Shown: one piece after another, positions 483 to 58,879 of the stretch
Layout of the letters: the number at the start of each line of letters is the position of its first letter
Numbering within the stretch: the first letter of the stretch is position 1
IMG/VR virus record: IMGVR_UViG_3300028888_000123
Reading direction: 5' to 3' (one strand)
From: a virus
Length of the DNA stretch: 64,000 nt
Notes under the pieces: generated by a model
What the model was told of the DNA's origin: nothing
What the model saw: the letters and a program-made list of their open reading frames with translations, nothing else
Databases searched by the model: none
Program-made: the position numbers and the translations under genes

Positions 483-487
483 GATGT

Positions 488-559
488 GGGAGAGTAGCTC
501 ACGGCTAGAGTGCTAGCTAGCGAAGGCTAGAGATGTAGGTTCGACTCCTACCTCTCCCA
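488..559 (+). tRNA. tRNA with a non-canonical 8-nt anticodon loop (TAGCGAAG); isotype undetermined.
   Basis: Acceptor GGGAGAG/CTCTCCC, D-stem GCTC/GAGT, T-arm GTAGG-TTCGACT-CCTAC. The anticodon stem CTAGC/GCTAG encloses 8 nt. Confidence 0.55.
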
Positions 560-638
560 ACAATGGTGACGGGACTAGCCAGAAGAAGTCCTATATAACA
601 AGGGGTACTTTGTAATAGCTGCTATCCCTTGTCTATAT

Positions 639-993: not shown

Positions 994-3177
994 ATGAGAA
1001 CATTATTGTTATTTAGATGAGCACCTTGATGTGGAAAGTCTACCTTCATAAAGGAGAATTGACTAGAACCATACACTTTATGTGCAGATACTTTTAGAAT
1101 GCTGTATTCTTCTCCTACATTATATGTAAATGGAGAGGTACATATTCCACAGAATGTGAATGCAGTAGCTTGGGATAATCTATTCTCTACCCTAGAATAT
1201 AGAATGCAGAATGGAGAGTTCACAGTTATCGATGCTACAAACTCTAAAACTGTGGAGATGAATAAATATAAGAAACTAGCTGATGAATATAGATATAGAC
1301 TTTATATTGTTGATATGACAGACATCCCTATCGATGAAGTAAAGAGAAGAAATAAACTTAGACCAGAATGGAAATGGGTACCAGAAGAAGCTATAGATAA
1401 TATGTATGCTAGATTCACAACGCAAAAAGTTCCTAGCTGAATTAAGGTTATTAAACCAGAAGAGGTGGTTGACTTATTAAGATGGAGAGCTGTAGAAATT
1501 CCTGATACATATAAAGAGGTAGTACACATAGGAGATATTCATTGATGTTATGAAACATTAATGTCTGCTCTACCTAATGGTATTGAAGAAGATAAGTTCT
1601 ACATATTCCTATGAGATTACTACGAAAGAGGGCCAGAGAATGTAAAATGCCTAGACTTTATGGAAAGCATAATTGATTTACCTAATGTTGTATGTTTGGA
1701 GTGAAATCACGAAACTCATTTATGGACTTATGGTATAGGAAAAATCCCTAGAAGTAAACACTTTATGGGGTATACAGTGAATGAATTAATCGAATGAGGA
1801 TGGGATGCTAAAAGAATGAGAATCTTTATGAAGAAACTTTTGCAGTGCTACTACTATACCTTCAAAGGTAAAACTGTTCTATGTACTCACTGAGGAATAA
1901 GTAATTCTAATTTCGATGAACTATTCCCATTAGGATTAACTTGTATCGCTACAATGGATTTAATTCATTGAGTGGGTAGCTATAATGATACAGCTGAATG
2001 TGATACTAACTTTGCTAAAGGAAACATAATTCAGATACACTGACACAGGAATATAGAAGATAAACAAATAGAATGAATTGCTAACCTAGAATGATGAGTT
2101 GAATGGTGAAAGGAATTGAGAGTTGCTGTGTTGGGTGATGAATTAGAAGTAGTTAAGTATCCATACAAAGATAGAATACCTTCTAAGGAAGAATTCTTCT
2201 GAATAAAACAGGATGTAACCGTTAAACAATTCATTGAAAGCTTGAGAAAGAATAGATATATCAACGAAAAAAATGTGCAGTGAAACATAAGTAGCTTTAA
2301 CTTTACTAGATGAGCATTTAGTAGAAGTCACTGGGATAGAGAAACAGTTAAAGCAAGGGGGCTATTTATAAACACTAACACATATAAAATAGTTGCTAGA
2401 GCCTACAATAAGTTCTTTAATATAGACGAACAAAAGAGTACAATGTTATTTAGTATAGGACAAAATGCTCACTTCCCTATCGTTGGGTACAAGAAATATA
2501 ACGGATATCTATGAATAATAGGATACGATGAAGAAAGCGATGAGTTAGTATTCACAAGTAAATCTGAAGTGGGTTGACCTCACGCTCAACGACTTAAAGA
2601 AATAGTTATAGAGAAAGGTATCAACTTAGAAAAAGTAAAAGACTATTTAAAGGAGAACCTTTGCTCGTTAGTCTTTGAGGTTATAGACCCTGTAAATGAT
2701 GCACATATTATTAAGTATACTGAAAGAGATGTTATATTGTTAGACTGTGTAAAGAATACTATCAACTTTGAGAAACTAGACTACGATAGTTTATTAAAGC
2801 TATGAGAACTACTTTGATTCACAGTAAAAGAAAAGTTAGTAGAGTTAAAAGATATGGTGGAGTTGAGAGAATGTATTGACGAATTACTAAATCCTAATTC
2901 AGAGTACAATACTTGAACTCCTATTGAATGAATGGTGTTTGTTGACAAAGATGACTTTATGTTTAAACAGAAGTGAGAGTATTATCAGCAATGGAAGAAA
3001 CTTAGAGCTTTGATTTGAGTAGTAGCAAGATGACAAAACTTTGTTCATACTTGAATGTTAACAAACCCAGAGATGAATGAGTTCTATTGATGGTTAAAGG
3101 AACAGACTTTAACTTGAGAAGAAAACATTATAGAGCTTAGAGATAAGTTCTATGCTAACAAAGCTATGATTAGCTAA
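994..3177 (+). CDS. pnkp: Trifunctional RNA repair enzyme with kinase, phosphatase and ligase domains. The N-terminal domain is a P-loop polynucleotide kinase, the central domain a lambda-phosphatase-type metallophosphoesterase, and the C-terminal domain an Rnl-type RNA ligase. About 727 aa with TGA read as Gly.
   Basis: P-loop FRGAPGCGKST spans two TGA codons (1018-1050). GDIHGCY (lambda PPase GDLHGCY) and LEGNHE span further TGA codons. Ligase motifs KxNG (VGYKKYNGY), FEVID, EGMVFVD and FKQKG are present. Only TGA interrupts the frame, up to TAA at 3175. Confidence 0.75.
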
Positions 3178-3306
3178 CATAGGGAGTCGTCCACCTCGGC
3201 ACGGACGGATAATGTGGGGTATCACACTGTAAATATTAGCTTTAGTATTAGTAATGCGAAGTACAAACATTATGAGTAGTAAGGTTAATATGATATATCT
3301 CCCTTC

Positions 3307-3377
3307 GGCAGGGTAGCTCAGGGGCAGAGCAATGCCGTTTAGGGCATATGTCGTGGGTTCGAGTCCCACCCTTGTCG
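3307..3377 (+). tRNA. tRNA with a 6-nt anticodon loop (GTTTAG) between a perfect 5-bp stem ATGCC/GGCAT. The central TTT/TTA suggests a Lys(UUU) derivative or UUA; isotype undetermined.
   Basis: Acceptor GGCAGGG/CCTTGTC (two GU pairs), TA, D-arm GCTC-AGGGGCA-GAGC, T-arm GTGGG-TTCGAGT-CCCAC. Confidence 0.5.
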
Positions 3378-3384
3378 AGGGGAG

Positions 3385-3866: not shown

Positions 3867-4076
3867 ATGAGAGTGGCAACGTTAATTAAAAAGTTAGAAA
3901 ATTTTCCAAAAGAGTGGGAAGTATTCTATAAAGATGGAGAAGACTTAATAGAGATACTCTGATGTAATCAGGGTATTGAATATTATGAAGAGTGAGACGA
4001 AAGAAGAAAGCCAGTAATAGACGAAGAATGAAATAAGAGTTATCCATATTGAAGAAGGGTGGTTACTTTAAGTTAG
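3867..4076 (+). CDS. Hypothetical small protein (about 69 aa).
   Basis: ATG 1 nt after the previous stop; frame open with TGA as Gly. Confidence 0.35.
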
Positions 4077-4101
4077 TTTTATATCTTAAGTAAAAATCTG
4101 A

Positions 4102-4344
4102 ATGACTGATAAAGAAAAGAAAGAACTGCTTGATATAATTGAAACACAAAAAATATATCTAAAAGCAGATAAGGAATTTATTGAGGGACAAAGAAATTAT
4201 ATAAAATCATTAGAGCAGAAATTAGAGAAAGACAAATTTGGTTTGCGATATGCTACCTTTGTATATGGTGGGTTAATATGATGATGTATTTATATATTAG
4301 AGAAATCAATACAATGATGGATAGAAATTATTAGTTGGTTTTAA
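4102..4344 (+). CDS. Hypothetical small protein (80 aa), lysine-rich coiled-coil N-terminus.
   Basis: Frame verified codon by codon to TAA 4342-4344, which is the TAA of the first TAATCAG unit. Confidence 0.45.
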
Positions 4345-4373
4345 TCAGATTTATTTACTTAATTTAATAACCT

Positions 4374-4601
4374 ATGGAAACTATAAAGGAAGAAAGAGAA
4401 AGCTGAATGGAACGAAAAGCACATAATTATTCCTTAGAGTATAAGAATTGGAGATTTACGCTAACCGAAAGCGAGAGATGAGATTGTTTCTTTGTAAATA
4501 TATACTACAAAGATAATAGCTGTTCAATGTTTGTACATACAGGTACAAAAACAGCAGAAGAAGCTAAAGAGCGAGTTGAAGATTTTATCAAAACAGAATT
4601 A
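4374..4601 (+). CDS. Hypothetical small protein (75 aa).
   Basis: ATG lies in the conserved CCTATGG context after the intergenic unit; codons counted to TAA 4599-4601. Confidence 0.45.
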
Positions 4602-4634
4602 AAATAATCAGATTTATATTATTACTTTATACCT

Positions 4635-5021
4635 ATGGGAAACAAATTAGAACAGCTATTGAATAGCTTGATAGAGAAAGGGTATATACCATTTAATATA
4701 CCTTGTATTACAAATGTTAGTTTTTTAAGAAGATTATGGATAACATCACATCAGAATGACAGAGATTATAAATTTGATTTCTCTTTAAGGGACTTAGTAA
4801 GTAAAGAAAGCTGACTATGGCAATTCGTGTGTGAGAATGGATTATTGAATGTAAACAAAAAATATGAATGGGAATATTGGACACAAAGTTATAAACAAGA
4901 TTGAGAAGAATATACACACGAATTTAGTAGATGGTGTGAGAAATACCGACTAATAGAAAGTGCCTTATGTGATGAAGATAAGTTAGAGGAGTTTTTACTC
5001 AATTCAATTAAGTTAGACTAA
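4635..5021 (+). CDS. Hypothetical small protein (128 aa).
   Basis: CCTATGG start; three TGA codons read as Gly; stop TAA 5019-5021 lies inside the next TAATCAG unit. Confidence 0.45.
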
Positions 5022-5051
5022 TCAGACTTTTATATTATTTACCTAAAGGAA

Positions 5052-5252
5052 ATGGGAAAAGAAAAATCTGAATGAAAATATAGGATAATAGAAGTAATAG
5101 ATACTGCTATAAATCAGAGAGTATATATTCCACAAAAGAAGAATTGGCTTTGAATTTGGAGAGATATAAGCTATTGAAAATTTCTTTTAGAAAGTGCAGA
5201 AGATGATATTAGAAAAGATAAATGAGAGTTTAAGATAGTTAAATATATGTAA
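5052..5252 (+). CDS. Hypothetical small protein (66 aa).
   Basis: Start after the intergenic unit; stop TAA is part of TAATCAG. Confidence 0.4.
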
Positions 5253-5280
5253 TCAGACTTTTATATTTTATTTATAACCT

Positions 5281-5481
5281 ATGTATCGTATTCTTAAAAC
5301 ACCTAATTGAAAATATAAAGTACAGAAAAAAGATTGGCTTATAGTAAGTTATCGAAGAACTATTGAATATTATGACCCAGAAGCAGAAGCACGTTTAACT
5401 AGATTATTTGACACAAAGAAAGAAGCAGGGGAACGAATAGATAGAGATAGGGGATGAAAAATAATTAAAGAATATTACTAA
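5281..5481 (+). CDS. Hypothetical small protein (66 aa).
   Basis: CCTATG start; stop in TAATCAG. Confidence 0.4.
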
Positions 5482-5513
5482 TCAGACTTTTATATTTATA
5501 ATTTATTATAACT

Positions 5514-5768
5514 ATGGAGAAAAAACTATCAACTTCATCTGCGGAAATATATTGTTGAAAGCCTATGAAAGAATGGCTTGATGAGTGGGAATGACACTAT
5601 ATAACAGTGTGAGAACTTATAGATGAGCTATGAAAATTTGACAAAGACTTAAAAGTTTTAGTTAGGCGTACTTCTGAATTCACCGATGAAGCAGATGCTA
5701 ACCCATATATTGATTTGATGCGTTGAAGATTAAGAGGGACTAATGAAGATATCTTGCTTATCAATTAA
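5514..5768 (+). CDS. Hypothetical small protein (84 aa).
   Basis: Start after the intergenic unit; frame open with TGA as Gly. Confidence 0.4.
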
Positions 5769-5786
5769 TATTTTATATTATTAGCT

Positions 5787-5984
5787 ATGGAGATGTGAAA
5801 AATAGAAATCTATGAGGACTGTAAACAGATAAGTCAGTTTGAATATCTACGACCTATTATATTTGTCCTCATTATTATAATAACTTTAGTGATGTGATAT
5901 TTATGTAGTATAGCATATGAGCAACACGTTTGAGAGCCAACCAAAGATAGTTGTATAGAATACTTTACTAAATATTCAAAGTAA
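5787..5984 (+). CDS. Small membrane protein (65 aa, one TM segment).
   Basis: Hydrophobic stretch IIFVLIIIITLVM; stop in TAATCAG. Confidence 0.4.
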
Positions 5985-6007
5985 TCAGACTTTTATATTA
6001 TTTACCT

Positions 6008-6253
6008 ATGGAGAGAATGACATTTTATATACCACCTGTATTCTTATTTGGGAATAATGCTAATAGAGTTCCTCACGATGAAGAAAAGAAATCTGAATAT
6101 AAGACAGCAGCTGAAACTGAAATTAAAGTAGAGAATTGGATGGCAAAAAGAATAGCTGAATTAGAAGAAGAAAATAAAAAGCTGAAAGAAGAAAATGAGA
6201 AACTTAGAATTGATAGAGAGTTTGAAAAATGAAATACAATATTTGGTATGTAA
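6008..6253 (+). CDS. Hypothetical coiled-coil small protein (81 aa).
   Basis: ORF track 6008..6232 extended through one TGA to the TAA inside TAATCAG. Confidence 0.45.
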
Positions 6254-6283
6254 TCAGACTTTTATATTTTAATTTTATAACCT

Positions 6284-6475
6284 ATGATAGATACAAGTAG
6301 TTTAGATAAAGTATGAGAATATATAGAACAATTAGAAGAATGATGAAAGCAAGCTAGAGGAAGGGTAATAGAGCTTGTAGATAAACTTAATAAGATTAAA
6401 GACTTATTCAATAAACGAGATATGACTTGAAGGGATGAATTTTTAGATGAGTTAAGAGATTTGCTTAGAGATTAA
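6284..6475 (+). CDS. Hypothetical small protein (63 aa).
   Basis: CCTATG start; stop in TAATCAG. Confidence 0.4.
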
Positions 6476-6502
6476 TCAGACTTTTATATTTATTATTCAC
6501 AA

Positions 6503-6616
6503 ATGGAAACAATAATAAAAATCTGACTTATAATATGGTGTATTATAATATTGCCACCGATGATAATAGGCATAATTAAAGCGGTTATAGAATTCTATAA
6601 AGATTTATTGAAGTAA
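6503..6616 (+). CDS. Tiny membrane peptide (37 aa).
   Basis: Hydrophobic IIWCIIILPPMIIGII; bounded by two intergenic units. Confidence 0.3.
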
Positions 6617-6644
6617 TCAGATTTATCTATTAAACTTTTAAGTT

Positions 6645-6755
6645 ATGGACGACGATACAATTTGATGTATATGATGTATAGGTTGCTTATGGCTTCTCTG
6701 AATTATATCAGGAAATACAGCAATGATATTAGTTTTACTTGCTATTATATTATAA
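6645..6755 (+). CDS. Tiny Cys/Gly-rich membrane peptide (36 aa).
   Basis: Triple CIG repeat read through TGA; the stop overlaps the next start (TAATG). Confidence 0.3.
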
Positions 6756-7102
6756 TGGAAAAACTTATAGAGTTATTGAATGAGTATGAAAAGAAAGCAG
6801 TAGTACACTGGTATGAGTGGTATTGACAAGATGTTTTAATGTGCAGATATATAAAAGATGGTTTTGAATTTTATACTGATGAAGCAACTACGATAGCTAT
6901 TTCTAAATATTACTGATTTATTAAATGGTTAGTAGAGAATGATAAGATAGACAAAGATAAATTATACAAATCTGAATATAAGCCATACTTTTGGAATAGA
7001 ACAACAAATGCTTTTAGCTGATTTTGGGCAGAGAATATCTTACTAATGCTACTTGCTATATCAGATACACCTATTGAAGATTTAATTAGTTATTTAAGAT
7101 AA
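6755..7102 (+). CDS. Hypothetical protein, family A; paralog of 3470..3865.
   Basis: Shared motifs GFIKWLVENDKIDKDK and LLMLLAISDTPIEDL. Confidence 0.45.
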
Positions 7103-7132
7103 TCAGGCTTTTATATCGTTACTTAAATGAAA

Positions 7133-7363
7133 TGAAGAAAGTGTGGTATTGAACAATGGAGGAATATGAGAATATAAAAACTACATTTAGAGAAACACAA
7201 AAAAGCAAACCAAGATTTTATTACCGTTGAGATTTAAATACTGAATGAGAGCGGAAAGAATGGTCTACCCCTAGAAAAATTACTAACTCACGAGGAAAAC
7301 TACAAGAAGAATATGATACTTGGAATAAGAGTAGATATAGACACGACACAATATATTTTATAG
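7133..7363 (+). CDS. Hypothetical small basic protein (about 76 aa).
   Basis: First ATG after the intergenic unit; stop TAG 7361-7363. Confidence 0.35.
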
Positions 7364-7399
7364 TTTAATCAAACTTTTATATTATTTATCTTTAAAAAA

Positions 7400-7558
7400 A
7401 TGATACTTGTAATTATCTTTTTAATCCCATTAAGTTTACTCTTATGTGGTATGTTATTGTGAGTAGTAGATATGACATTATTTGATGGGGCTTTGTCTGA
7501 GTTCTTGAAGGCTTGGACACATCATTGGCTAGATAAATATAAGCCAAAGGAAAATTAG
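7400..7558 (+). CDS. Small membrane protein (52 aa).
   Basis: TM segment ILVIIFLIPLSLLLCGMLL; followed by the AATTAGTTTT motif. Confidence 0.35.
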
Positions 7559-7581
7559 TTTTATTTCTTGTTTATATTACT

Positions 7582-7743
7582 ATGAACGAAGTCTGGTGAA
7601 CTGGACCTATAATAGGACTTATAATTTGTTGACTGCTCTTCTTATTTGTTGTGATTGACCTTGCTACAGATGGTGAGCTAGGTGATTGGATAAGCGATTG
7701 GCTTAAAAGTTGGATAAGGAAATTACCTCATCCTAAATATTAG
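7582..7743 (+). CDS. Small membrane protein (53 aa); likely paralog of 7400..7558.
   Basis: TM segment IIGLIICGLLFLFVVI; same downstream motif. Confidence 0.35.
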
Positions 7744-7768
7744 TTTTTATTTTTTGCCTATTATAACT

Positions 7769-8215
7769 ATGAAACATAAATTTTATCAATTACAAGATTA
7801 CATTAAGAGGAAATGACTTAAAAATAAAAAGGTTACTCGGGACGAGGCATTTGATATGATGTGCTTTCTTGAAGGATATAATGACCATTTCGCTCCTGAT
7901 GAAGAATTCACTACCTTTTATATGAAAGATAAATTTGGGAATGATTTAGACAGTGATACTCGATTATCACATTCTGTAGACTGTATAGTCTATAAACAGT
8001 TAGATACAAAGGAACGGTTAGTTAAAGATGATTGTCTCAGATGGGGAATCTTAACATATAAGCAAAGTGATTGTATAGGTATATACCCAGACATAGAAAC
8101 AATCACCGAAGATGAAGCTATGGAAATAATGAGTAAAGTAGAAAAAAAGAAACCTTCTCGCGATAAAGAATGATTAAAAAAAGATATAAGTAATTTAATT
8201 GATAAATACTTATAG
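7769..8215 (+). CDS. Hypothetical protein (148 aa).
   Basis: ORF track 7856..8173 extended in both directions with TGA as Gly. Confidence 0.5.
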
Positions 8216-8250
8216 GAAAAATTAGTTTTTATTTTTTACCAATATATATT

Positions 8251-9045
8251 ATGAAAAACTTTATGGTTTGATGTTGGAGTATCATCGTTTTACTCCTAGT
8301 TATCTGCGGTTTTAACTCTTGGTTTGTGGTTGAACCTGGATACAACTGATTTACTGTTACACTAGGAAAGGTTAACAGTACGGTTTACACGGATGGGTTA
8401 CATTTTAAAACTCCATTCATTACTAAGTCTGTAAAATATAATATACAGACACAAAAAGCTGAATGAGTTACTGAAGCTAGCTCAAAAGATTTACAGACTG
8501 TTGATGCTACGATTGTAGTGAATTACAAATTCAAAGAAAGTGAGGTAGTTAACCTATACAAAAATGTAGGTAGGGAAGAAAAGGTACAAGAAAAAGTTCT
8601 AGAACCAGCTATCCAAGAAGTATTTAAATCTGTTGTAGCTAAATTTTCTGCCGAACAATTAATCACAGAAAGAAGTGCTGTATCTAAAGAAATTGAAGAT
8701 GCCTTAAACAAGAAGTTAGATGCTTATGGAATTCAAATCCAATCATTTAATATTGTAAACTTCAACTTCTCTAAATCATTCAACGATGCAATTGAAGCTA
8801 AGGTAACAGCTGAACAGAATGCACTAGCTGAAAAGAATAAACTAGAACAGGTGAAGTATGAAGCTGAGCAGAAAGTTGTTGCAGCTGAAGCACAAGCTAA
8901 GGCTATTGAAATTCAAGCTAAAGCTATTCAAAACCAATGAGGTGCTGAATATGTAAAGTTAAAATGGATTGAAAGATGGGATGGTAAATTACCTGTAACT
9001 ATGGCTTGAGAAGATAGCTCATTTATAATGATGATGGATAAATAA
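8251..9045 (+). CDS. SPFH/band-7 (prohibitin/HflC-like) membrane protein (264 aa).
   Basis: N-terminal TM segment followed by an SPFH-like domain and an Ala/Gln/Glu-rich coiled coil (AEQNALAEKNKLEQVKYEAEQKVVAAEAQAKAIEIQAKAIQNQ). Confidence 0.55.
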
Positions 9046-14465: not shown

Positions 14466-15215
14466 ATGCTCTACAAACAATTTGCGCCTCTTAAGGAAGA
14501 TTATAAAACTATCATAGTTTCTGTAACGGAGATAGAAAAAGCTCTCGTCCCTACTCCAAGTTTCGTTTGAGAACTTGAGCCTAAGAAGAAAGCTAATACG
14601 TATTGGGTATGAAACTTAGTAGAAAATATCGTCTTTGCTAGAATTAATCAATGAGTTGAAGCAGCCCAACATCAAATTGAGATTGCTAGATGAATGATGA
14701 ATCCAGAAAGAATGAGATATTATTCTGCTAGTTGAGTAGAAGACAAGCAATTTTCACGATTGTACGATTGATTAGACCAGCTCATTCCTCTATCTGAACA
14801 GTATGAAGCTATAGGTATGTATGATATAAGAAACCTTAGGAGTGCAGTTGAAGTAGACTTCAGTTGATATAAGGTAATTTTGACCGGGGAAATTGATTGG
14901 GGTATGGACTGAACTATGCTCTTCGATTGTAAGACAGCTAAGAAAAAATGGAATGAAAATGAGAAATGGGAATTAGGGTGCTATCAATGAAGATTTTACC
15001 CTTGGTTTCAATTCTTACAACATCCAGACATAGACGCTATATCATTTAGTTATCTCGTGTTTACAAAGCAAAAAACTATTCAGCATCAAAATATCACTCA
15101 CATCGTCAAAAGGCAAGAGGCTGAAGACTTTGTAAAAGATAAGTTATATCAATACTTATTAGGGGTACATAAATGAGAAATAGAAACTACCGAATGAAGT
15201 CTTGATAGAATGTAA
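14466..15215 (+). CDS. PD-(D/E)xK-type nuclease-like protein (252 aa).
   Basis: GEIDWGMDGTMLFDCKTAKKKW resembles the D...(D/E)xK core of RecB/YqaJ-type exonucleases. Confidence 0.35.
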
Positions 15216-15261
15216 AATATTTATACCGCTAAGCGGCATTTACTTTAAACAAAAATAAAAA

Positions 15262-15723
15262 ATGAATAAAGATAGTCAACGTTGAGTTGCTACTGAACTT
15301 ATTGAACTCATAGCTAATCTAATCGCTAGTTATTCACATCATAATGAGCTATACAATTCTATACAGTCTGACTTGCTTCACCCAGAATTATTTACTGAGG
15401 AACAAGTAAAGCAGATGCAAGAGGATAGTATATGGCATTATAATAAAATGACTAGCCTCTTAGAAGAGAGAAGATTAGCTATGAGAAAATTAAAAGAGAA
15501 AGCTATAGAATGTGACGAGCATATGCGATGCCTTGTCAAACATTCTATAGCTTCTTTTCAATTTAGCCAAGAAGTTCTAAATACAAATATGGATGATTTA
15601 GATTATATCCACTTGGCTGAAACTGCTTACCAATATATGTATGAATGTGTAAGTAAATTCCTATGAGTTACATTGGTTACCTGTGCTAGGTGCTTGGAGG
15701 ATGAACTCAATTTACAAAAATAA
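15262..15723 (+). CDS. Hypothetical protein (153 aa).
   Basis: ORF track 15373..15666 extended; AAACAAAAATAAAAAATG leader. Confidence 0.45.
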
Positions 15724-15732
15724 AAAAAGAAA

Positions 15733-16293
15733 ATGCAAGAGAACCCTTATGAAAAGGCATTAAACTTATATAAGGAGAACCTCGACGAGTGACGTATATT
15801 CCTTTACGAGAATATGAAAATACTTATGAGGAAAAATCCTCTCCTTCGCCATAAGAATTATACCTTTACAAAAGACGACATCCTTTCAGAGGCGTTCCTT
15901 ATCTGAGATGAAATCCTTTTGAGAAAGGATATACCAGACGAAAAGAAAATCTCTAAACTATGGTATCTATTCAATAGATGAGGCTGAGCCCTATATAATA
16001 AATTAAATCAATATGGAGCTGAAAGCTATACTATAGATGATATTAGAGATAGTGATAGCCGAAGTTATGATATGGATGTCGATATGTTACAGTATGTATT
16101 AGTAGTAAATAATATAATTTCTCCATTGGAGGCAAAGGTACTTCAATATGTATGAGAATGAAGAGGGAAATATGAAATCGCAAGACTTATGAAAACTACA
16201 TACTATAATGTGAGAGATATTGTGGATACAATCTGATTAAAGATAAAAAGGTTTTTAGAAGAAAACGATTTAGAAGATGCAACTAACAGCTAA
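15733..16293 (+). CDS. Sigma-factor-like transcription regulator (186 aa).
   Basis: C-terminal helix-turn-helix KYEIARLMKTTYYNVRDIVDTIGLKIKRFLEE resembles sigma-70 region 4; the size suits a phage or ECF sigma factor. Confidence 0.4.
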
Positions 16294-16411
16294 TGCAGAG
16301 CAAAAAGTTATTTCTCAGTATATAACGGTGTATCAATCTATAATTTCTTTCTCTGTAGAAAAGTTATGATTAGAAGTTATATTAAAATATAACAAATCAG
16401 ACACCGATAAT

Positions 16412-16852
16412 ATGCTAGACGACTGTAATGCTCATTTAATAGAGGTGTGCGAAGACTACCTAAAAGAGCATAAACTTAATTTAGATAAGTTTCAGCTCGC
16501 AACGATAGTGGCTCAGTTATGGAGCCAGACAATCTCTGAACTAGACGAACCATTCCGTGTAACAATTAAGGAGTCAAAGCATCTAATTCAAGATTACCTA
16601 GAAAAGAATAAATCCAAGAGGGAGACCCTAGAAAGAATTAAGAAAGAGAATGAAAGTCTTGATAAAGAGGTGGCCCTTAGGAAAAAGGAGCAACAGGAGA
16701 AAAAAGTCATTCTTAGACCAGAACCCGAAATGCCGAGCGAAAATTTGGAAACCGGGGGCCTGGGGACCGAACCCCTCCCCTCTAAGCCTAAGAAACCTAG
16801 AGCTAGATGAACCGACGCTCTTGCAGTTGACAACTTTAGATTACCAATTTAA
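16412..16852 (+). CDS. Hypothetical protein with a GC-rich Gly/Pro/Lys tail (146 aa).
   Basis: ORF track 16412..16810 extended through TGA to TAA 16850. Confidence 0.4.
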
Positions 16853-17304
16853 TGGGGATGCAGAAACTTGATTTTATTAGACGTGCTCCTTGAATTACTG
16901 ATTTCAATATGCTCGTAGAAAAAATAAATGAAATCATAATCAAGCTGGATACTAAAATAGAAATAGAAGATGTGTCTATCGATAGACAAATAAAGGACTT
17001 TACCTTCTTCAAATGAGAAGAAACTAAACTACCATACCACCAAGAATTCACCATTACCTCTAATGAAGAAGCTACGAAAGTCTTTGAAATGTATAACCTT
17101 ACCTACAAAGAAATAAAGCAAATAAATGATATTATCATTAAATGAAACATTGTTGCTTTAACTATAGATGTAGTTGAGGAAGTGACAGAGAAAGATAAGA
17201 AACAAGAAACTTTCTTTGGCTATGTAAAAACTGTAGACTTAGATGCTCCAGTAAAAGAGAAACCAAAAAAGAAAAGAGCAAAGAAGAAAAACTCTTGGAA
17301 ATAA
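16852..17304 (+). CDS. Hypothetical protein with a lysine-rich C-terminus (150 aa).
   Basis: Start overlaps the preceding stop; open frame. Confidence 0.4.
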
Positions 17305-17329
17305 AAACTTTTATAAACAAAAATAAAAT

Positions 17330-17788
17330 ATGTCATTTGTATCTGACCTTGCAATATGAGAAGCTTGCCAAATAGAATTTGCTAAACTATTACTTAGTAC
17401 AGAGAAAGTAGTTAAGCTTGAAATCGCTCAATGAAAATTTAAGCTACGAGATATAAAAATTACTACCCCAGAATGAGAGAAGACTTATGAAATAAAGAAG
17501 GACCTTAAAGCACAAGACACCTGAAACTATGTAATTGAAACTCGTTGTAATTGAAAAGTCTCAGGTATCTACACTTCTACTGCAGATTATATAGTCTATA
17601 ATGTGAAGTGAGAACGACGAATTCAAGAGAGGGGCGAACTAATCCTTAGACTTATGGACGTAGAGAAACGTATAACTAAATGAGGAGATTGACGAAGAGC
17701 TGAAATGTTTGTATTAAAATGTGATACCTTACCTGTTTTATTTAATAAGATAGAAACAAATGGACAAACTTGAGAAGAAAATAGCTAA
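17330..17788 (+). CDS. Hypothetical protein, possible PD-(D/E)xK-like fold (152 aa).
   Basis: YEIKKDLKAQDTGNYVIETR motif. Boundaries are uncertain and the 3' end overlaps the next gene. Confidence 0.3.
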
Positions 17789-18044
17789 GCAAGAAGAAGC
17801 TATAGCTGAAACTTTGAGAGAGTTTCTAAAGCATTTTAATAAAGCTTGGTATTCTATTGAGGAACCTGTAAGAGAGTTGGAAAAATTCTTTGACTTAACT
17901 ACAGATTGAGATTGAATAGTCTATATATTTGTAAAAACTAAAGAATGAGATTTCTCTATGGGCTATACTACAGATATAGATTTAGCAGACTTACAGAATG
18001 TTATAAACTATCTTAAATTCAAGGCAGATATTTACCTTAGATAA
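17760..18044 (+). CDS. Hypothetical protein (94 aa).
   Basis: Open frame; overlaps the previous gene by about 29 nt. Confidence 0.35.
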
Positions 18045-18051
18045 AAATAAA

Positions 18052-18558
18052 ATGGCAAAAACAAAAAAGAAATTTGAATGATGGAAGCGAGAAAGTATAA
18101 ATGCTGAAGTCATTGAAAACTCTGATAAGGCTATAGAAATTATTCTTTACGGATTTATCCCTAGTAAAAAGAATAACCGTAGAAACTTTTGACATATCTC
18201 TCTGCCTAGTGAAACTTATACAGAATGGCATAAGAGAATAGTAAGTGTGTTATCTTGAATAGAATGGAAATTTAAAAGTTTCCCCTGTAAGATAACTATA
18301 GCGTCTGTAGCTTGAGACAGGGTTAAATCTGATATAGATAATCAGGCCCAATCTATATTTGATACATTTACAGATTTATGAATTATTCCTGACGATAATA
18401 GATTTGTAGTACAGGAATTACATATTACAAATATGGGCTATGTAAAAAATGCCTATATGACCAAAGTATTAATTGAGTGAGATTATACTCTTCGCTACAA
18501 TGACGACTGAGACCATAAAGGCTTTGACTTAAAGCAATATACTTATCATTTAAGTTAG
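18052..18558 (+). CDS. rusA: RusA-family Holliday-junction resolvase (168 aa).
   Basis: IPSKKNNRR and VAGDRVKSDIDNQAQSIFDTFTDLGIIPDDNRFV match the RusA signature (KKNS..., DxDN, I.DD). Confidence 0.6.
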
Positions 18559-18583
18559 TTTTATTATTTACAAAAAATAAAAA

Positions 18584-19096
18584 ATGAAATGAGTTAATGT
18601 AAAAGAATGCCGTTTAATAGACCAATGGCTTCATTCATCAATTGCTTCAGTAACTTGGAGAGACTTAATCAACTTCTTCGGACAAGATATGTCTACAATC
18701 GCTAAGGCAGTAGCAGAATTAGACAAATCTGAATTATACAAAACTGTAGGAGGAGACATAGAAAAGAAAGCTGAAGAAATAGTCGAAGCAAAATGTAAAC
18801 CTGAATGGAATAGAATCTCTGAAGAGATGAAACCTTTAGGAGAAGAAAGAAATAAATTAGCAAAAGAAAAAGCTGGAATACCAGAGGATTGAGTTTGGGA
18901 AACCGAGAAAGAAGAAAGATTAAATGAAATAGACAAGAAAATGTCTGACCTATCAGCCGAATATCAAAAGGTAACAGATGACGCAAATAAAGAATTAAAT
19001 GAATTTAAAGAAAAAAGAATCAACGAAGAGCAAGGGGCAGCCTTCTTGTTAGATGACGCTGAATATGACTTGGTTGGTTGATACTGTTGATTTTAA
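18584..19096 (+). CDS. Hypothetical acidic protein (170 aa).
   Basis: ORF track 18689..18892 extended; stop counted at 19094. Confidence 0.4.
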
Positions 19097-19119
19097 TTTA
19101 CTACTAAACAAAAATAAAA

Positions 19120-19818
19120 ATGACCATCATCGCTGCAAAACAATTTTGAAAAACAAAAGAAGATAAAAAATGGACTTTATTTACAGACGATTGCATAACT
19201 GTAGGGCAGGCTCAAGTAAGTGCTGCTAGAAAATATCGTCCTAAATTAAGAGAAATTAACTGAAAAAACTGTGATTTAGTTATAGCTTCTTGCGGGGGAA
19301 CTAGAGAAATTGATTTAACTTTAAATTTACTTGAAGCTAAGCTTGAAATTACAAAGGTAAAAAATACAATGGATTTAGGCGTAGTAATACAGACAGCATT
19401 AGTAGATGCTCGAAGAACAGTATCAGAACTGTCAAAAGACCCAGCTGTCTGATTGTTAATCTTAGAAACCAACACTAATACTCTATGGCACGTGGATGAT
19501 TATAGTATGTTCCAAGTACCAGATGAATGAGAAATCGTCGCTGGTAGTTGAGAACAAGCTTTCTTCTCTGCTAATAAATATGAGAATTTCCTATGAAGTC
19601 TTCGTTTAGCAGTAAAGACAGACGAATATTGTGAGTTCCCTATTTATGCTTATAGAGATTGAGAAATGTATAACTTCTATGCTCATCAAGACCCATATGA
19701 AATGGAACAAACTTTACTTGGTAATCCACCTAGTTATGAATGCACTCCAGTCCTCTGTAACGAAGAATACAGAGAACCAAAATGAATGAGCGAAAACATC
19801 GCTGCAAAACTTTGATAG
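19120..19818 (+). CDS. HslV/proteasome-beta-like N-terminal-nucleophile peptidase (231 aa).
   Basis: Begins M-T-I-I-A-A (Thr-1 nucleophile position); TDDCITVGQAQVS and VAGSGEQAFFSA resemble HslV GDGQVT and IGSGG motifs. Confidence 0.4.
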
Positions 19819-19951: not shown

Positions 19952-19977
19952 AAAAGCCCCTCTTTTGAGGGGTTTTT
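19951..19977. terminator. Bidirectional rho-independent terminator at the point where the two arms converge.
   Basis: AAAAAGCCCCTC-TTTT-GAGGGGTTTTT with A- and T-runs on both sides. Confidence 0.7.
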
Positions 19978-32396: not shown

Positions 32397-35300
32397 TTAA
32401 CTTTGTTTAATAAAATAAATTTTTCCAGCAACAGGATTACTTACTTGTGAGTATTCCGATGCTGTCATTACCGTAGCAGTAGTCACATCTCCAGTCTGTC
32501 CATTCACACTAAGTACTCCTGTGTTTGTTATTGTATTTCAATCTCATCATATCCAAGTTCATTGAGTTTCTCATCACCGGAGATTATCATTATGAACACT
32601 ACTCCAATCGTATGGGGTACTATTCCCAATTATGAATGTATCGCTTTCATAATATCAATTAGCTGTGTTTGGTCAATAATTTGAAGCATCTACTTGTGTA
32701 CTAGAAGTTGTAATACTTCAAGTCCAAGCGAATCAATAATTATTACCCCATTGATAATATTTACCACAATTAGCTTCGCTTAATGTATCTCAATTATTAT
32801 ATACTGTAGTTGCTCATAAGTTTTTATCCATAATAGTATATCCTGTCGTTCAGTCTGTAATAGAAATTAATCATTCAGTTTGATTCCAGAATATTCAAGC
32901 ACTTCATAATGTTCCATTTATTACAGCCCAAGAAGATGTAGGTAGCTCAAATGAATCCTTGAAACAACGAACGGAGAACCCGAAAACACGGAAGTGGTTA
33001 TTATCCACGAATACGCTGGACGAATCCAGGTAGATGTGACGGGCGTTAATCGTGCTGCCAGACACATAAGGAGAAGACGACCAATAGCGACCGATGGAAC
33101 CCTGGTCGTTGGGGCTAGCAGAGTTGTAACGACGGCCACCAGCGAACGGCATATGCAAATTTATTCTCCAGTCATCTCAAGAAGTAGTTAAACCTAATCA
33201 ATCCATTATAGTTTTAAGTCATTGCCATTCTGTTGTTAAAGGTACGTGAAATCCATCTGGTGCAGGTCACTGCATATCTGAATGTGTAGCTCATATAGTT
33301 ATTCATTCTCAAGCGTTATATTCTTTTCAAGCAACTACTACATCTCCATACTGTCAGTTTACACTTGTGACAGGTATGTTTGCTTCTACTCCATTCTTTA
33401 TGGTTTTAGTAATGTAATTTGTCATTATACTGTTTTGTAAATAATATAAAGGTTTCAATCTGAACTAGCTCACGATATGTTGTTATATTCAGTTTGAGTT
33501 ACTAATTTTCACGTTTCTAAATTCACTGTACTAGCACTACTCTGATTAGCTGTAAATGTTCATTTGCTAGTTCATCATTGATTTATTGTCAGAGTTCAGT
33601 TATTTACTGTTGGAATAGTTAATGTGACAGCTCAAGTCTGCCCATTTACACTACTAACAGGAGCGTGCGTTTTTATTGCTCACTTTAATACTGATGCAGA
33701 TATACTCCTTGCTGATGTAGATGTTCAAGTTGTAGCTTCACTTGCACTCATTGCTGAGTATGTTGTATTACTATCTGTAAATAGATGTAATGCTCATCAG
33801 CTTTCATATTTAGTAGTATATTGGAATTGCCTTGTATTAGCCTTAGTAAAATATGAGTGTCCTGCTAATGCAGTGGTAGTTCACATTACAGGGATATAAG
33901 CTCAATTTCAGATTTTTACTCTTACATTTCTATTTGCACTTGCCACTACCATTTCTGTATCTACTACAAATGTATAGATAGCTCATTCTCTCCATTCTAT
34001 TCCTGCGCTAGCACTAATGTCTATGTTAGTATATCCATAAGAAGTATTATAAGGTGCTACTCATTTAGTATCATCTGTACTTACTGTTACATCTGCCTCA
34101 GTAATGATAAATACATTATTAGCACTTATTACATTACTAGAGATTTTGATATTTTCTCCAGCTATTAGAGTATCTTGTTTAGTACTATCGTGATAAGCAT
34201 TTGTAATATATCAAGCATCATTATTTAAAGTAGAAACATTATCTCAAGGTTGTACTGCTGTAGCACCTGCACTTGCTCCACTTCTTATCGTAGCTAAGTC
34301 TGATATAGTATCCTGCTTTCAAGCTATAGTCGTATCCATAGCAGCAATTTTATCATAGACTGCATTTTTGGAAGGGGCTATTGTTGTTACTCAGTTCCAA
34401 GAAGAAGCATATGCTATATCTGAGATTTGACTTGGATAAGTAACATCTACCTCTGTAATTCAAGTTACCTGTCATAATGAGTTCGTTGTTATCTGTGGAA
34501 CCTTTGTTGCACTTCACTTACTTGTATAAGCTGTTTGTGTTGCTAAGGCATTTTGTTTTCAATTCCAAGTAGATTTCTCAGAAGAGGTTACAAATAAGTT
34601 TGTACTTCATTGAGTAATATTATCTGAAGTATTTGTTGTTTTATTAAAGTAATTTGTTAAGTCTACTGAAGTGTCTCATATTTTTACCCAAGTCGAATTA
34701 GCGTAAACATATTCTTCATATTTATCTGCCCCGCTTCAAGTAGGTCAAAGCAAATAAATTACATTTGTTTTTATATCAGTTGTAGGTAATGTTGCTACAA
34801 TTTCAAATCATTGAAAATTTTGTACTAAAGCATTTACTTCTGCTTGTGTATATGTCTCAGTCTTTTTATAGTAATTAGTTAGATTATTTACTGCGTTCGT
34901 GATAAATCAGCTATCATTCGTTAAGTCTGAAACCTTTGTAGGAATTGCTGAACTATCAGCTTTGCTTGCTATAGTTGTATCCATAGCAGATATCTTATCA
35001 TACATAGCATTCTTTGAAGGAGCAATACCTGTCACACCATTCCAACTTGCAGCATAAGCTTCATCACTTACAGCTCAACTTGTAGCAGCAGAGATATTAT
35101 CATCTACATATTTCTTTGTAGCAGGATGATAACTTCAAGTAGGAGTAAACTCTATTGTATTTGTTTTAGTTAATACTTCTGTTTTATCAGCTTTTCAACT
35201 TATATCTGGCTGTTGAATAGTTACCTCTGTAATTCAAGTTACCTGTCATAAACTGTTAGTTGTAATTTGTGGGACTTTAGTTGCACTTCATTTAGATGTA

Positions 35301-38300: not shown

Positions 38301-38506
38301 TCAGGGATAGCTAGACTAACAACTCTATATTGGTCAGGCTCAACCACTTGTCAGTTTACTTTAATTCCCTGAATGGCATTTTTCTCAGCACTTGGTTCTA
38401 TGCTATCAAGCTTTTCTATCACTTCTTGTGTAAGAGAAAACTCAGTAGCCTTCTTGTCTACATAATCTCAATCAGCTAGGTATCTTATACGTGCTGCTTT
38501 TGACAT
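32397..38506 (-). CDS. Giant tail fibre (about 2035 aa) with an N-terminal anchor domain, at least five internal repeats of about 150 aa, and a C-terminal FISUMP-like domain followed by a second partial copy.
   Basis: ATG (CAT) at 38504-38506. Repeat core APSKNAVYDKISAMDTTIAGKADS recurs at about 34300, 34990, 35440 and 36350 on the + strand. GGRRYNSASPNDQGSIGRYWSSSPYVSGST...FGFSVRCFKDS (ORF track 32904..33158) sits in a GC-rich island. Stop TAA 32397-32399. Confidence 0.5.
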
Positions 38507-58855: not shown

Positions 58856-58879
58856 ATAATGTATAATTGCTAAAATAAA

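What the first reader, a model, noticed from the sequence alone, without database searches (positions are those of the whole stretch)
4342..7400. Eleven copies of a 30-nt early intergenic unit TAATCAGACTTTTATATTATTTACCTATGG
Between nearly every pair of small genes in 4.3-7.4 kb the same unit recurs. Copies start at 4342, 4604, 5019, 5250, 5479, 5982, 6251, 6473, 6614, 7100 and 7366. Its TAA is usually the stop of the upstream gene, and its ATG is the start of the next, always in the context CCTATGG with no Shine-Dalgarno sequence. Spacing equals gene length (110-400 nt), so this is not a CRISPR array. It looks like a reiterated early promoter and translation-initiation cassette driving about 15 tiny, mostly orphan proteins, several of them membrane-embedded or paralogous. 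This is the sort of module that carries host-takeover or anti-defence functions.
Basis: seen in the sequence. Interest (0 to 1): 0.6.

Follow-up and report, generated by a model that had tools for sequence, protein, structure and literature searches.

The report
Reiterated promoter-like unit between phage gene cassettes
A 17-base sequence repeated between about a dozen tiny genes of a phage that reads TGA as glycine is most likely a strong host-type promoter that also serves as the joint at which unrelated phages of the same uncultivated bacteria swap small genes.

Summary
Eleven co-oriented copies of TAATCAGAYTT(T/A)TAT lie between tiny genes at 4.3-7.4 kb, and TAA is the upstream gene's stop in 11 of 11. 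The genes are visible only when TGA is read as glycine (code 25), so this is a phage of Absconditabacteria (SR1).

The exact 17-mer occurs in 57 other TGA-recoded viral contigs. It has a sharp left edge at the stop codon, no conserved -35 region, no RNA structure, no Rfam match and no special complementarity to host 16S rRNA. It stays identical while flanking proteins are only 35-59% identical, and gene order across the junctions is scrambled. One whole cassette (7093-7388) is shared at 89% with an otherwise unrelated contig.

SR1 genomes carry related A(A/T)TCAGAYTT..TAT blocks, in sense orientation, upstream of ribosomal-protein operons, a tRNA and 5S rRNA. These blocks are conserved between species.

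Best reading (about 0.6, no transcript data): a strong host-RNAP promoter-type signal that also acts as a recombination joint, resembling T4 PeSL cassettes but without the stem-loop. "Always CCTATGG" is wrong. "Early-only" is doubtful, because a variant precedes capsid and tail-fibre genes in other phages.

The parts
4342..4358 (+). copy 1, TAATCAGATTTATTTAC (T-variant). TAA is the stop of ORF 4102-4344. Next ATG at 4374.
   Evidence: weight-matrix score 18.0
4605..4621 (+). copy 2, TAATCAGATTTATATTA (T-variant). TAA is the stop of ORF 4374-4607. Next ATG at 4635.
   Evidence: 17.1
5019..5035 (+). copy 3, TAATCAGACTTTTATAT. TAA is the stop of ORF 4635-5021. Next ATG at 5052, in the context CCTAAAGGAAATGG.
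   Evidence: 26.4
5250..5266 (+). copy 4, exact 17-mer. TAA is the stop of ORF 5052-5252. Next ATG at 5281.
5479..5495 (+). copy 5, exact 17-mer. TAA is the stop of ORF 5281-5481. Next ATG at 5514.
5766..5786 (+). degenerate copy, TAATATTTTATATTATTAGCT, which lacks CAGAC. TAA is the stop of ORF 5514-5768. Next ATG at 5787.
   Evidence: read from the sequence; ORFs
5982..5998 (+). copy 6, exact 17-mer and the only exact match to the quoted 30-mer. TAA is the stop of ORF 5787-5984. ATGs at 6008 and 6017 (CCTATGGAGAGAATG), with 6017 probably the true start.
6251..6267 (+). copy 7, exact 17-mer. TAA is the stop of ORF 6008-6253. Next ATG at 6284.
6473..6489 (+). copy 8, exact 17-mer. TAA is the stop of ORF 6284-6475. 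Next ATG at 6503.
6614..6630 (+). copy 9, TAATCAGATTTATCTAT (T-variant). TAA is the stop of ORF 6503-6616. Next ATG at 6645.
   Evidence: 20.8
7100..7116 (+). copy 10, TAATCAGGCTTTTATAT. TAA is the stop of ORF 6755-7102. Next ATG at 7132. It is the left end of the cassette shared with L070.
7366..7382 (+). copy 11, TAATCAAACTTTTATAT. TAA is the stop of ORF 7132-7368. Next ATG at 7400. It is the right end of the cassette shared with L070.
4073..4085 (+). class-B relative, TTAGTTTTATATC, with the embedded TAG stop of ORF 3867-4076. Next ATG at 4102.
7555..7567 (+). class-B relative, TTAGTTTTATTTC, with the embedded TAG stop of ORF 7400-7558. Next ATG at 7582.
7740..7755 (+). class-B relative, TTAGTTTTTATTTTTT, with the embedded TAG stop of ORF 7582-7743. 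Next ATG at 7769.
   Evidence: (D4, D12)
8222..8237 (+). class-B relative, TTAGTTTTTATTTTTT, upstream of the SPFH/Band-7 gene 8251-9045.
   Evidence: (D12)
4102..8215 (+). block of 17 tightly packed small ORFs (36-148 aa, code 25) that the units separate. Five have a TM-like segment. Paralogous pairs are 3470-3865/6755-7102 and 7400-7558/7582-7743. None has a Pfam or PHROG hit.

Best explanation
The unit is a strong promoter-type signal of the kind used by the Absconditabacteria (SR1) host, reiterated in front of nearly every small gene of a plastic accessory-gene region. Its invariant 17-38 nt also provide the homology at which phages of this host exchange gene cassettes.

Shown:
- The unit is a contiguous, unstructured DNA block, co-oriented with the genes.
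- Its left edge is the upstream stop codon. A start codon follows 27-35 nt after the T of TAA.
- It is identical in 57 recoded phage contigs that carry unrelated terminases, while the flanking proteins diverge and their order is scrambled.
- Related A(A/T)TCAGAYTT..TAT blocks sit in sense orientation upstream of likely operon-first host genes and of two untranslated host RNA genes. They are conserved between SR1 species.

Inferred:
- Host RNA polymerase holoenzyme binds the block. TTTTATAT/TATTTA acts as the -10-like melting element, and AATCAGAC is an upstream contact that replaces a classical -35.
- Transcription starts a few bases downstream, giving very short leaders. That suits a host whose 16S rRNA, in the one gene read here, lacks the anti-Shine-Dalgarno sequence.
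- Tandem promoters give high expression of each cassette.
- Homologous recombination within the shared block moves [unit + ORF] modules between co-infecting phages.
For: 1. Statistics, orientation and position. There are 11 of 11 copies on the + strand, TAA is the stop in 11 of 11, and 0 of 100 shuffles reach the observed count.

2. Family-wide anatomy from 105 copies. Information content is below 0.3 bit from -40 to -4, then there is a sharp onset at TAA, and conservation runs to about +33. TAA is the in-frame stop in 94 of 105 copies. Of 147 sites, 123 are followed by an ORF of at least 30 codons within 12-45 nt, against 18% of random positions.

3. Not an RNA structure. Folding z-scores are about +0.7, there is no Rfam match, and there are no terminator-like sites inside the array.

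4. Not a ribosome-pairing site. The duplex energy with host 16S rRNA is no better than for shuffles, and the host 16S 3' end reads ...GGAUAGACUACCAUUCUA, without CCUCC.

5. Host usage.
- In a 20-kb SR1 locus, matrix scores of at least 10 occur upstream and in sense of orf87-rplU (21.0), rpsD (15.1), tRNA-UCA (13.2), 5S rRNA (13.0) and rplM (10.5). None occurs in antisense. Upstream regions score higher than antisense (p=0.017) and than shuffled sequence (p=4e-4).
- Two of the five are untranslated RNA genes. This argues for a transcript-level signal and against a translational one.
- The blocks are footprints conserved between SR1 species while their flanks diverge, with the same left edge as the phage unit.

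6. Shared across phage lineages. At least two terminase clusters that do not match each other occur in these contigs, alongside DnaB and reverse transcriptase genes. No T7-like polymerase was found. The exact 17-mer is multi-copy only in viral contigs. It is a single-copy, chance-level hit in 596 Gb of genomes, apart from SR1/Gracilibacteria records.

7. Recombination joint.
- There are 197 unit-led ORFs in 91 families. Family 0 has 11 different upstream and 17 different downstream neighbour families across the junction.
- The window shares only short DNA patches with other contigs, and these centre on the units. One complete unit-ORF-unit module (7093-7388) is 89% identical to L070.
- Flanking proteins are 35-59% identical while the unit is 100% identical.
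Against: - No transcription start sites are available, so promoter activity is inferred.
- The block does not fit sigma-70 geometry. It has no -35 hexamer at 16-18 nt. If TCAGA were the -35, the -10 would overlap the start codon. The consensus scan does not pick up the copies systematically.
- Perfect conservation of a contiguous 17-mer is more typical of promoters read by phage-encoded polymerases.
- The host sample is small. It is one roughly 20-kb syntenic region seen in nine records (L098, L109, L160-L162, L164-L166 plus partial overlaps), representing about four species, and the host statistics are modest (p=0.017).
- The single perfect host copy lies next to a tRNA gene and precedes an unknown 87-aa ORF, so it could be a domesticated phage cassette. 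However, that ORF has no homologue in the phage loci.
- Nearly every host gene also has TTTAT(T/A)T 25-33 nt before its ATG. Part of the unit could therefore act on the mRNA.
- Mosaicism shows that junctions coincide with the unit. It does not show that the unit causes the exchange.
Confidence: 0.6

Rival explanations
1. The unit acts on the mRNA rather than on the DNA. It could be a 5'-leader or translation-initiation enhancer for a host without Shine-Dalgarno pairing, a termination-reinitiation signal, or an endonuclease processing site that cuts a long polycistronic early transcript into monocistronic mRNAs.
For: The stop codon is embedded in the unit and the next start lies only 27-35 nt away. 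The distance from TTTAT to the ATG is narrow, 20-26 nt in the phage and 25-33 nt in host genes, including genes normally internal to operons. The host 16S rRNA lacks the anti-SD sequence, so some other initiation signal must exist. The region is unstructured and AU-rich, as S1-type enhancers are.
Against: Related blocks precede untranslated host genes, tRNA-UCA and 5S rRNA. There is no complementarity to 16S rRNA beyond that of shuffles. The most conserved part is the distal TAATCAGAC, while the bases next to the ATG vary. Upstream of host rpsD the block lies 70 nt from the ATG. A processing-site reading is not excluded by any test run here.
Confidence: 0.17
2. The unit is a promoter read by a phage-encoded or virion-delivered polymerase or sigma factor, not by the unmodified host enzyme. 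This would resemble T7-type 17-23-nt promoters or the early promoters of N4, phiKZ and crAss-like phages.
For: The block is a contiguous invariant 17-mer with no -35 region. Its format resembles the T7 promoter: TAATnnGACT, then 2-3 nt, then TATA. This resemblance rests on my own knowledge of TAATACGACTCACTATAG. The window encodes giant proteins of 2939 and 993 aa with no recognisable family. It also encodes a 186-aa ORF with a marginal sigma-70 region-4 hit (E=0.0096).
Against: No T7-like polymerase was found among 654 ORFs of at least 150 aa from the window and the held parts of all loci. The unit is shared by contigs of roughly 6-77 kb that carry non-matching terminase clusters. A single phage polymerase is therefore unlikely to be common to all of them. 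Related blocks are conserved upstream of host ribosomal-protein, tRNA and 5S genes. The giant protein has no match among solved structures.
Confidence: 0.1
3. The unit is mainly a selfish or structural cassette boundary, such as a recombination or mobility site or a scar of repeated insertion. It would have no essential role in expression, and its conservation would be kept up by gene conversion.
For: Gene order is extremely mosaic, with the unit at every junction. One module is shared from unit to unit. Unit identity far exceeds that of the flanking genes.
Against: Orientation with the genes is strict and the distance to the start codon is fixed. The unit has no inverted repeats or attC-like structure. 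No recombinase is consistently nearby. Degenerate but conserved versions lie upstream of host housekeeping genes, which are not mobile.
Confidence: 0.08

Closest known systems
PeSL (promoter-early stem-loop) mobile regulatory cassettes of T4-type phages (PMC2839356, PMC4122927)
   Same: Both are short conserved regulatory sequences reiterated between small, mostly orphan ORFs in hyperplastic regions. Both sit at the points of exchange between otherwise unrelated sequences, and both lie in the early-promoter orientation.
   Different: PeSLs are composite terminator plus promoter elements with a stem-loop. This unit has no stem-loop. It is a single contiguous block with the upstream stop codon built in. 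It has no recognisable -35 region. It is shared by phages whose terminase clusters do not match each other, not by one family. It has clear relatives upstream of host genes.
Clusters of strong early promoters in front of host-takeover genes (SPO1 host-takeover module, T4/T5/T7 early regions); from my own knowledge, not tested here
   Same: Many small early genes are each preceded by a near-consensus promoter read by the host polymerase.
   Different: Those promoters have the sigma-70/sigma-A -35/-10 architecture and strong Shine-Dalgarno sites. Here there is no -35, and the host 16S read here has no anti-SD. Variants of the unit also precede late structural genes in other phages.
T7-type single-subunit RNA polymerase promoters
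   Same: Both are contiguous conserved blocks of about 17 nt that begin with TAAT..GACT and end in a TATA-like stretch directly upstream of the transcript.
   Different: No such polymerase was found. Related sequences are used in the host genome. The carrier phages are unrelated to one another.
Integron gene cassettes with attC sites, and CRISPR arrays
   Same: Both are arrays of short repeats that separate variable units.
   Different: The unit has no imperfect inverted repeat or attC structure, and no integrase is nearby. The intervals are ORFs of 141-503 nt that end in the repeat, not 30-40-nt spacers. The repeats are strictly co-oriented with translation.

Membership tests
sigma-70-type bacterial promoter | -10 hexamer resembling TATAAT | tested here: met
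   TATATT at bases 13-18 of the unit and TATTAT at bases 15-20; both are invariant in the family consensus.
sigma-70-type bacterial promoter | -35 hexamer (TTGACA-like) 16-18 nt upstream of the -10 | tested here: not met
   Information content is below 0.3 bit at every position from -40 to -4 in 96 unique copies. The consensus scan does not pick up the copies systematically.
sigma-70-type bacterial promoter | transcription start 5-9 nt downstream of the -10 | not testable with these tools
   No transcript data are available.
host-type promoter of Absconditabacteria (not yet defined in the literature found) | related sequence upstream, in sense, of host genes including untranslated RNA genes, and conserved between species | tested here: met
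   orf87-rplU, rpsD, rplM and rplT, plus tRNA-UCA and 5S rRNA. The sample is small (one syntenic region of about 20 kb in about four species).
T7-type phage polymerase promoter | cognate single-subunit RNA polymerase encoded by the phage | tested here: inconclusive
   phmmer with T7 gene 1 protein gave no hit at E<=10 among 654 ORFs. However, only parts of the contigs are held and only 64 kb of this genome.
T7-type phage polymerase promoter | promoter sequence specific to the phage and absent from host regulatory regions | tested here: not met
   Host relatives exist, including TAATCAGACTTTTATATC upstream of orf87-rplU.
PeSL cassettes of T4-type phages | conserved early-promoter motif reiterated between small ORFs of a plastic region | tested here: met
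   Promoter function itself is inferred.
PeSL cassettes of T4-type phages | adjacent stem-loop (terminator) as part of the motif | tested here: not met
   No stable fold (z about +0.7). No terminator-like site lies in 4.3-7.4 kb.
PeSL cassettes of T4-type phages | motif lies at the breakpoints of insertions, deletions and replacements between phages | tested here: met
   Neighbour families are scrambled across the junctions. Module 7093-7388 is shared unit-to-unit with L070.
CRISPR array | regular repeat-spacer period with non-coding spacers of 25-50 nt | tested here: not met
   Spacing is 141-503 nt and every interval is an ORF.
Shine-Dalgarno ribosome-binding site | complementarity to the 3' end of 16S rRNA | tested here: not met
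   The host 16S 3' end lacks CCUCC. The duplex with the 3' tail is weaker than for 95% of shuffles.
intrinsic terminator | G+C-rich hairpin followed by a U tract | tested here: not met
integron attC site | imperfect inverted repeats forming a folded single-stranded site, with an integrase nearby | tested here: not met
   No inverted repeat involves the copies, no fold was found, and no integrase hit occurs in the + strand block.

The most novel reading that the evidence does not exclude
The unit defines a promoter class not yet described for code-25 Candidate Phyla Radiation bacteria. It would be a single contiguous block of about 17 nt (AATCAGAC + TTTTATAT) with no -35 element, giving near-leaderless mRNAs for ribosomes that have lost the anti-Shine-Dalgarno sequence. 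Phages would have frozen its optimal form into a portable 'promoter plus stop codon' module that lets unrelated phage lineages trade host-takeover genes. A more remote reading also exists. The RNA form, CAGACUUUUAU, copies the 5' stem and loop of a tRNA-Lys(UUU) anticodon arm, so the unit could be a decoy for an anticodon nuclease. The Pnkp-like RNA repair gene at 994-3177 hints that such a nuclease exists. I put the probability of this second reading below 0.03.
Probability: 0.3. Interest if true: 0.7.

Novelty: new variant of a known kind. Interest (0 to 1): 0.5.

Why it matters
Absconditabacteria are uncultivated, read TGA as glycine and, in the one 16S gene read here, lack the anti-Shine-Dalgarno sequence. 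I found no description of their promoters or translation start signals in the papers searched. This unit gives a concrete and testable candidate for their strongest promoter form.

The unit also gives a simple sequence tag, TAATCAGACTTTTATAT, that pulls out their phages and the accessory gene cassettes of those phages. It already yields 197 ORFs in 91 families from 57 contigs. That catalogue is a ready list of candidate host-takeover or anti-defence genes.

Finally, it extends PeSL-style cassette shuffling at regulatory repeats from T4-like phages to a very different phage-host system.

Tried and rejected
1. Table-11 ORF calls. They are useless here, giving 4.2k aa of ORFs of at least 100 aa against 25k aa with TGA as a sense codon. 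I first translated TGA as Trp. I changed to Gly because the P-loop GAPGCGKS and the phosphoesterase motifs GDIHG, GDxxxRG and GNHE in ORF 994-3177 are restored only with glycine. The host also has a tRNA with anticodon UCA.

2. RNA element. There is no Rfam match and no stable fold.

3. Pairing with 16S rRNA, of the SD or TURBS type. It is no better than for shuffles.

4. T7-like promoter. No ssRNAP was found.

5. Giant 2939-aa protein as a virion RNA polymerase. It has no Pfam, PHROG or PDB sequence match, so this stays unresolved.

6. TCAGA as a -35 hexamer. With a 15-18-nt spacer the -10 would overlap or pass the start codon in both phage and host examples. I rejected this by reading the sequences.

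7. GGAG in CCTATGGAGAGAATG as a Shine-Dalgarno site. I rejected this because the host lacks an anti-SD. The second ATG is nevertheless the consistent open start.

8. The perfect host copy as a phage remnant. orf87 has no homologue in the phage loci or the window and no NCBIfam hit, so this is unresolved.

9. Function of the small proteins. They have no Pfam or PHROG hits.

10. Literature. Neither the motif string nor a promoter for these phages was found.

11. Iterons, an origin, Chi-like sites or uptake sequences. I rejected these on spacing, strict intergenic position and gene orientation.

Full report
**1. What is in the window**

The 64-kb window has 33% G+C. It is almost free of long ORFs in the standard code. 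With TGA read as a sense codon, ORFs of up to 2939 aa appear. ORFs of at least 100 aa total 4.2k aa in the standard code and 25k aa with TGA as sense.

TGA encodes glycine. In ORF 994-3177 the P-loop GAPGCGKS and the calcineurin-type motifs GDIHG, GDxxxRG and GNHE are restored only with Gly. The protein then scores as AAA_33 kinase + metallophosphoesterase + T4-type RNA ligase. The window is therefore part of a phage genome in genetic code 25, the code of Absconditabacteria (SR1) and Gracilibacteria. Code-25 phages of these bacteria are already known (PMC10746230).

Gene layout:
- + strand, 1-19.9 kb: tRNA genes, the RNA-repair enzyme, about 20 tiny genes, then larger genes including a RusA-like resolvase.
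- 19952-19977: a convergent terminator.
- - strand, to 64 kb: structural genes, with a weak portal hit and giant ORFs that have no family.

**2. Check of the observation**

Eleven copies exist at the stated places, except that 4604 should be 4605. All lie on the + strand.

The shared part is a 17-nt core, not 30 nt. TAATCAGACTTTTATAT is exact in six copies and has one change in two. Three copies have the form TAATCAGATTTAT... Only 5982 matches the quoted 30-mer. The count is far above chance: 12 hits against 1.4 expected, and 0 of 100 shuffles reach it.

TAA is the in-frame stop of the upstream ORF in 11 of 11 copies, and the next ATG follows 27-35 nt after the T of TAA. Spacing is 141-503 nt. 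'Always CCTATGG' is wrong: only 3 starts have it and 5 have CCTATG.

One deleted copy (5766) and four TTAGTTTT(T)AT relatives (4073, 7555, 7740, 8222) fill most of the remaining junctions. Three of those four carry an embedded TAG stop. In all, 16 units separate the 17 small genes from 4102 to 8215 and the SPFH/Band-7 gene that follows (8251-9045).

The small proteins have no Pfam or PHROG hit. Five have a TM-like segment, and there are two paralogous pairs.

**3. The unit is a family feature**

The exact 17-mer occurs in 70 stretches of IMG/VR. Sixty-four of these, from 57 contigs, are TGA-recoded with about 31% G+C. They often hold 2-4 copies spaced 150-800 nt apart.

The family consensus is TAATCAGACTTTTATATTATTTACCTATGGAGAGAATG. 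In 96 unique copies, conservation starts abruptly at TAA. Positions -40 to -4 carry less than 0.3 bit, apart from a weak gAc in the last codon. Conservation then runs to about +33. TAA is the upstream stop in 94 of 105 copies. The two halves of the unit are tightly linked: 105 of 120 GAYTTTTATAT sites are preceded by TAATCA. Of 147 sites, 123 are followed by an ORF within 12-45 nt, against 18% of random positions.

In the form CCTATGGAG(AG)AATG the second ATG is open in all but one case. In 3 of 3 cases where the two ATGs are out of frame, the first frame is closed. The true start there is probably the second ATG. That also brings the TTTAT-to-ATG distance (26 nt) into line with the other copies (20-26 nt).

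**4. What the unit is not**

- It is not structured RNA. Folding z-scores are about +0.7 and there is no Rfam match.
- It is not a terminator, and it has no inverted repeats.
- It is not an rRNA-pairing site. Its duplex with host 16S rRNA is no better than for shuffles. The host 16S ends ...GGAUAGACUACCAUUCUA, without CCUCC, so canonical Shine-Dalgarno pairing looks unavailable in this host.
- It is not a canonical sigma-70 promoter, because it has no -35.
- It is not demonstrably a T7-type promoter. No T7-like polymerase was found among 654 ORFs, although its format (TAATnnGACT..TATA) resembles one.

**5. Host connection**

A scan of one genome per species (596 Gb) gave 89 single hits, about the number expected by chance. 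Only three of them were in recoded records. Two of these are true SR1 chromosomal loci: infC-rpmI-rplT-tRNALeu-[TAATCAGACTTTTATATC]-orf87-rplU-infA-rpmJ-rpsM-rpsK..., with a tRNA(UCA) nearby. I fetched the same locus from a 1.13-Mb scaffold and from three further SR1 species.

In the 20-kb locus a matrix of the unit scores at least 10, upstream and in sense, for:
- orf87-rplU (21.0)
- rpsD (15.1)
- tRNA-UCA (13.2)
- 5S rRNA (13.0)
- rplM (10.5)

It never reaches 10 in antisense (maximum 8.6). Upstream regions score higher than antisense (p=0.017) and than shuffled sequence (p=4e-4).

Between species, A(A/T)TCAGAYTT..TAT blocks upstream of orf87, rplT, rpsD and rplM are conserved while their flanks diverge. 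Upstream of orf87, the footprint's left edge coincides with that of the phage unit. ATTCAGA also precedes rplT and rpmI, or rpsK, in two more distant species.

These sites are mostly plausible operon starts, and two of them are untranslated RNA genes. That is why I favour a transcription signal over a translational one. The sample is small and the architecture is unresolved. TCAGA cannot be a -35 with normal spacing, because the -10 would then overlap the start codon.

**6. Shared by unrelated phages, and not strictly early**

The contigs that carry the unit range from roughly 6 to 77 kb. They include at least two terminase clusters that do not match each other at BLASTP E<1e-10 (one hitting Terminase_6C and the T7-type RNaseH domain, one hitting Terminase_6N). 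They also carry DnaB and reverse transcriptase genes.

The variant TAATCAGATTTAT directly precedes a major head protein gene (PHROG E=9e-21), a tail-fibre gene, a DNA methyltransferase and a Ro/TROVE-like gene in other phages. In this window three late genes carry TYWGA(Y)TTT..AT 27-32 nt before their ATG, where about 0.2 would be expected.

This fits a general, strong, host-read signal. The exact TAATCAGACTTTTATAT form is specialised for the small-gene arrays.

**7. Recombination joint**

Across the window and the 57 contigs, 197 unit-led ORFs fall into 91 families, and 77 of these ORFs stop exactly in the next unit. The commonest family (window member 6008-6253) has 11 different upstream and 17 different downstream neighbour families across the junction.

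DNA similarity between the window and the other contigs is confined to short patches centred on units. One complete unit-ORF-unit module (7093-7388) is 89% identical to a contig that is otherwise unrelated. Proteins of shared families are 35-59% identical while the unit is identical.

This is the pattern described for PeSL elements of T4-type phages (PMC2839356, PMC4122927). The unit here differs in having no stem-loop.

**8. Verdict**

The details of start context and 'early' timing need correction. The code-25 context and the cassette-shuffling role were missed.
- Rivals: an mRNA-level signal or processing site (0.17), a promoter for a phage-encoded polymerase or sigma factor (0.10), and a pure recombination boundary (0.08).
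- Novelty: a new variant of a known kind.
- Interest is about 0.5. The unit offers a first testable handle on promoter architecture and on accessory-gene traffic in phages of an uncultivated, recoded bacterial phylum.

Noticed in passing
window 1-64000: The whole window is translated with TGA = glycine (code 25). Table-11 tools miss almost every gene. In a Patescibacteria genome record, an ARAGORN call of 'tRNA-SeC (tca)' is probably the tRNA-Gly(UCA) that reads TGA.
   Followed up: yes
window 994-3177 (+), with tRNA genes at 487-968 and 3306-3378: A 727-aa protein combines an AAA_33 kinase, a metallophosphoesterase and a T4-type RNA ligase. This is the Pnkp-like RNA-repair architecture. It sits beside a phage tRNA cluster, which suggests defence against a host anticodon nuclease.
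   Followed up: partly
window 487-561 and 3306-3378 (+): ARAGORN cannot assign two tRNA-like genes. It reports anticodons 'gcga' and 'tt', which means anticodon loops of unusual size. Both score 51-54 bits with the Rfam tRNA model.
   Followed up: no
window 15215-19120 (+): upstream of the genes starting at 15262, 15733, 17330, 18052, 18584 and 19120: A third upstream motif class, ATTTAC..(A)AACAAAAATAAAA(A)-ATG, precedes six larger + strand genes. ATTTAC is also part of the family consensus of the main unit (TATTTACC).
   Followed up: partly
window 15733-16293 (+): A 186-aa ORF has a helix-turn-helix-like C-terminus. Its only hit is marginal, to sigma-70 region 4 in NCBIfam (E=0.0096). It may be a phage sigma factor for later genes.
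   Followed up: partly
window 50038-58857, 58880-61861 and 33425-38506 (-): Giant ORFs of 2939, 993 and 1693 aa. The first two have no meaningful family hit: no Pfam or PHROG match for the 2939-aa protein and only a marginal PHROG hit (E=0.0078) for the 993-aa one; the 2939-aa protein also has no PDB sequence match. The 1693-aa ORF was not searched against any family library; it looks internally repetitive by eye and has partial similarity in several related contigs.
   Followed up: partly
L160 3020-3037 (host 16S rRNA 3' end): The SR1 16S rRNA ends ...GGAUAGACUACCAUUCUA. The anti-Shine-Dalgarno CCUCC is replaced by CCAUUC. This fits the absence of purine-rich ribosome-binding sites upstream of host and phage genes.
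   Followed up: partly
L160 1-3037: The host rRNA genes lie in the order 23S, 5S, 16S, with only 75 nt between 5S and 16S. This is not the usual 16S-23S-5S order.
   Followed up: no
L160 8300-15500 and its orthologues in L098, L109 and L164: Nearly every host gene in the ribosomal-protein locus has TTTAT(T/A)T 25-33 nt before its start codon. This includes genes that are operon-internal in other bacteria.
   Followed up: partly
window 7093-7388 versus L070 957-1253: A complete unit-ORF-unit module (78-aa ORF, 84% protein identity) is shared with a 34.7-kb viral contig. That contig otherwise shares only a lysin-like gene with the window.
   Followed up: yes
window 19952-19977: A bidirectional hairpin terminator (AAAAGCCCCTC TTTT GAGGGGTTTTT) lies at the point where the + and - strand gene blocks converge.
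   Followed up: no
L011 1466-2734 and one related locus: Two of the unit-bearing phage contigs encode a reverse transcriptase (RVT_1, E=2e-18). It could belong to a diversity-generating retroelement or a retron-type element.
   Followed up: no
the unit itself, e.g. window 5984-5995: TCAGACTTTTA is identical to the 5' stem plus loop of the human tRNA-Lys3 (UUU) anticodon arm, TCAGACTTTTAATCTGA. This surfaced only through a literature string search. The 3' stem is absent, so it is probably coincidence.
   Followed up: partly
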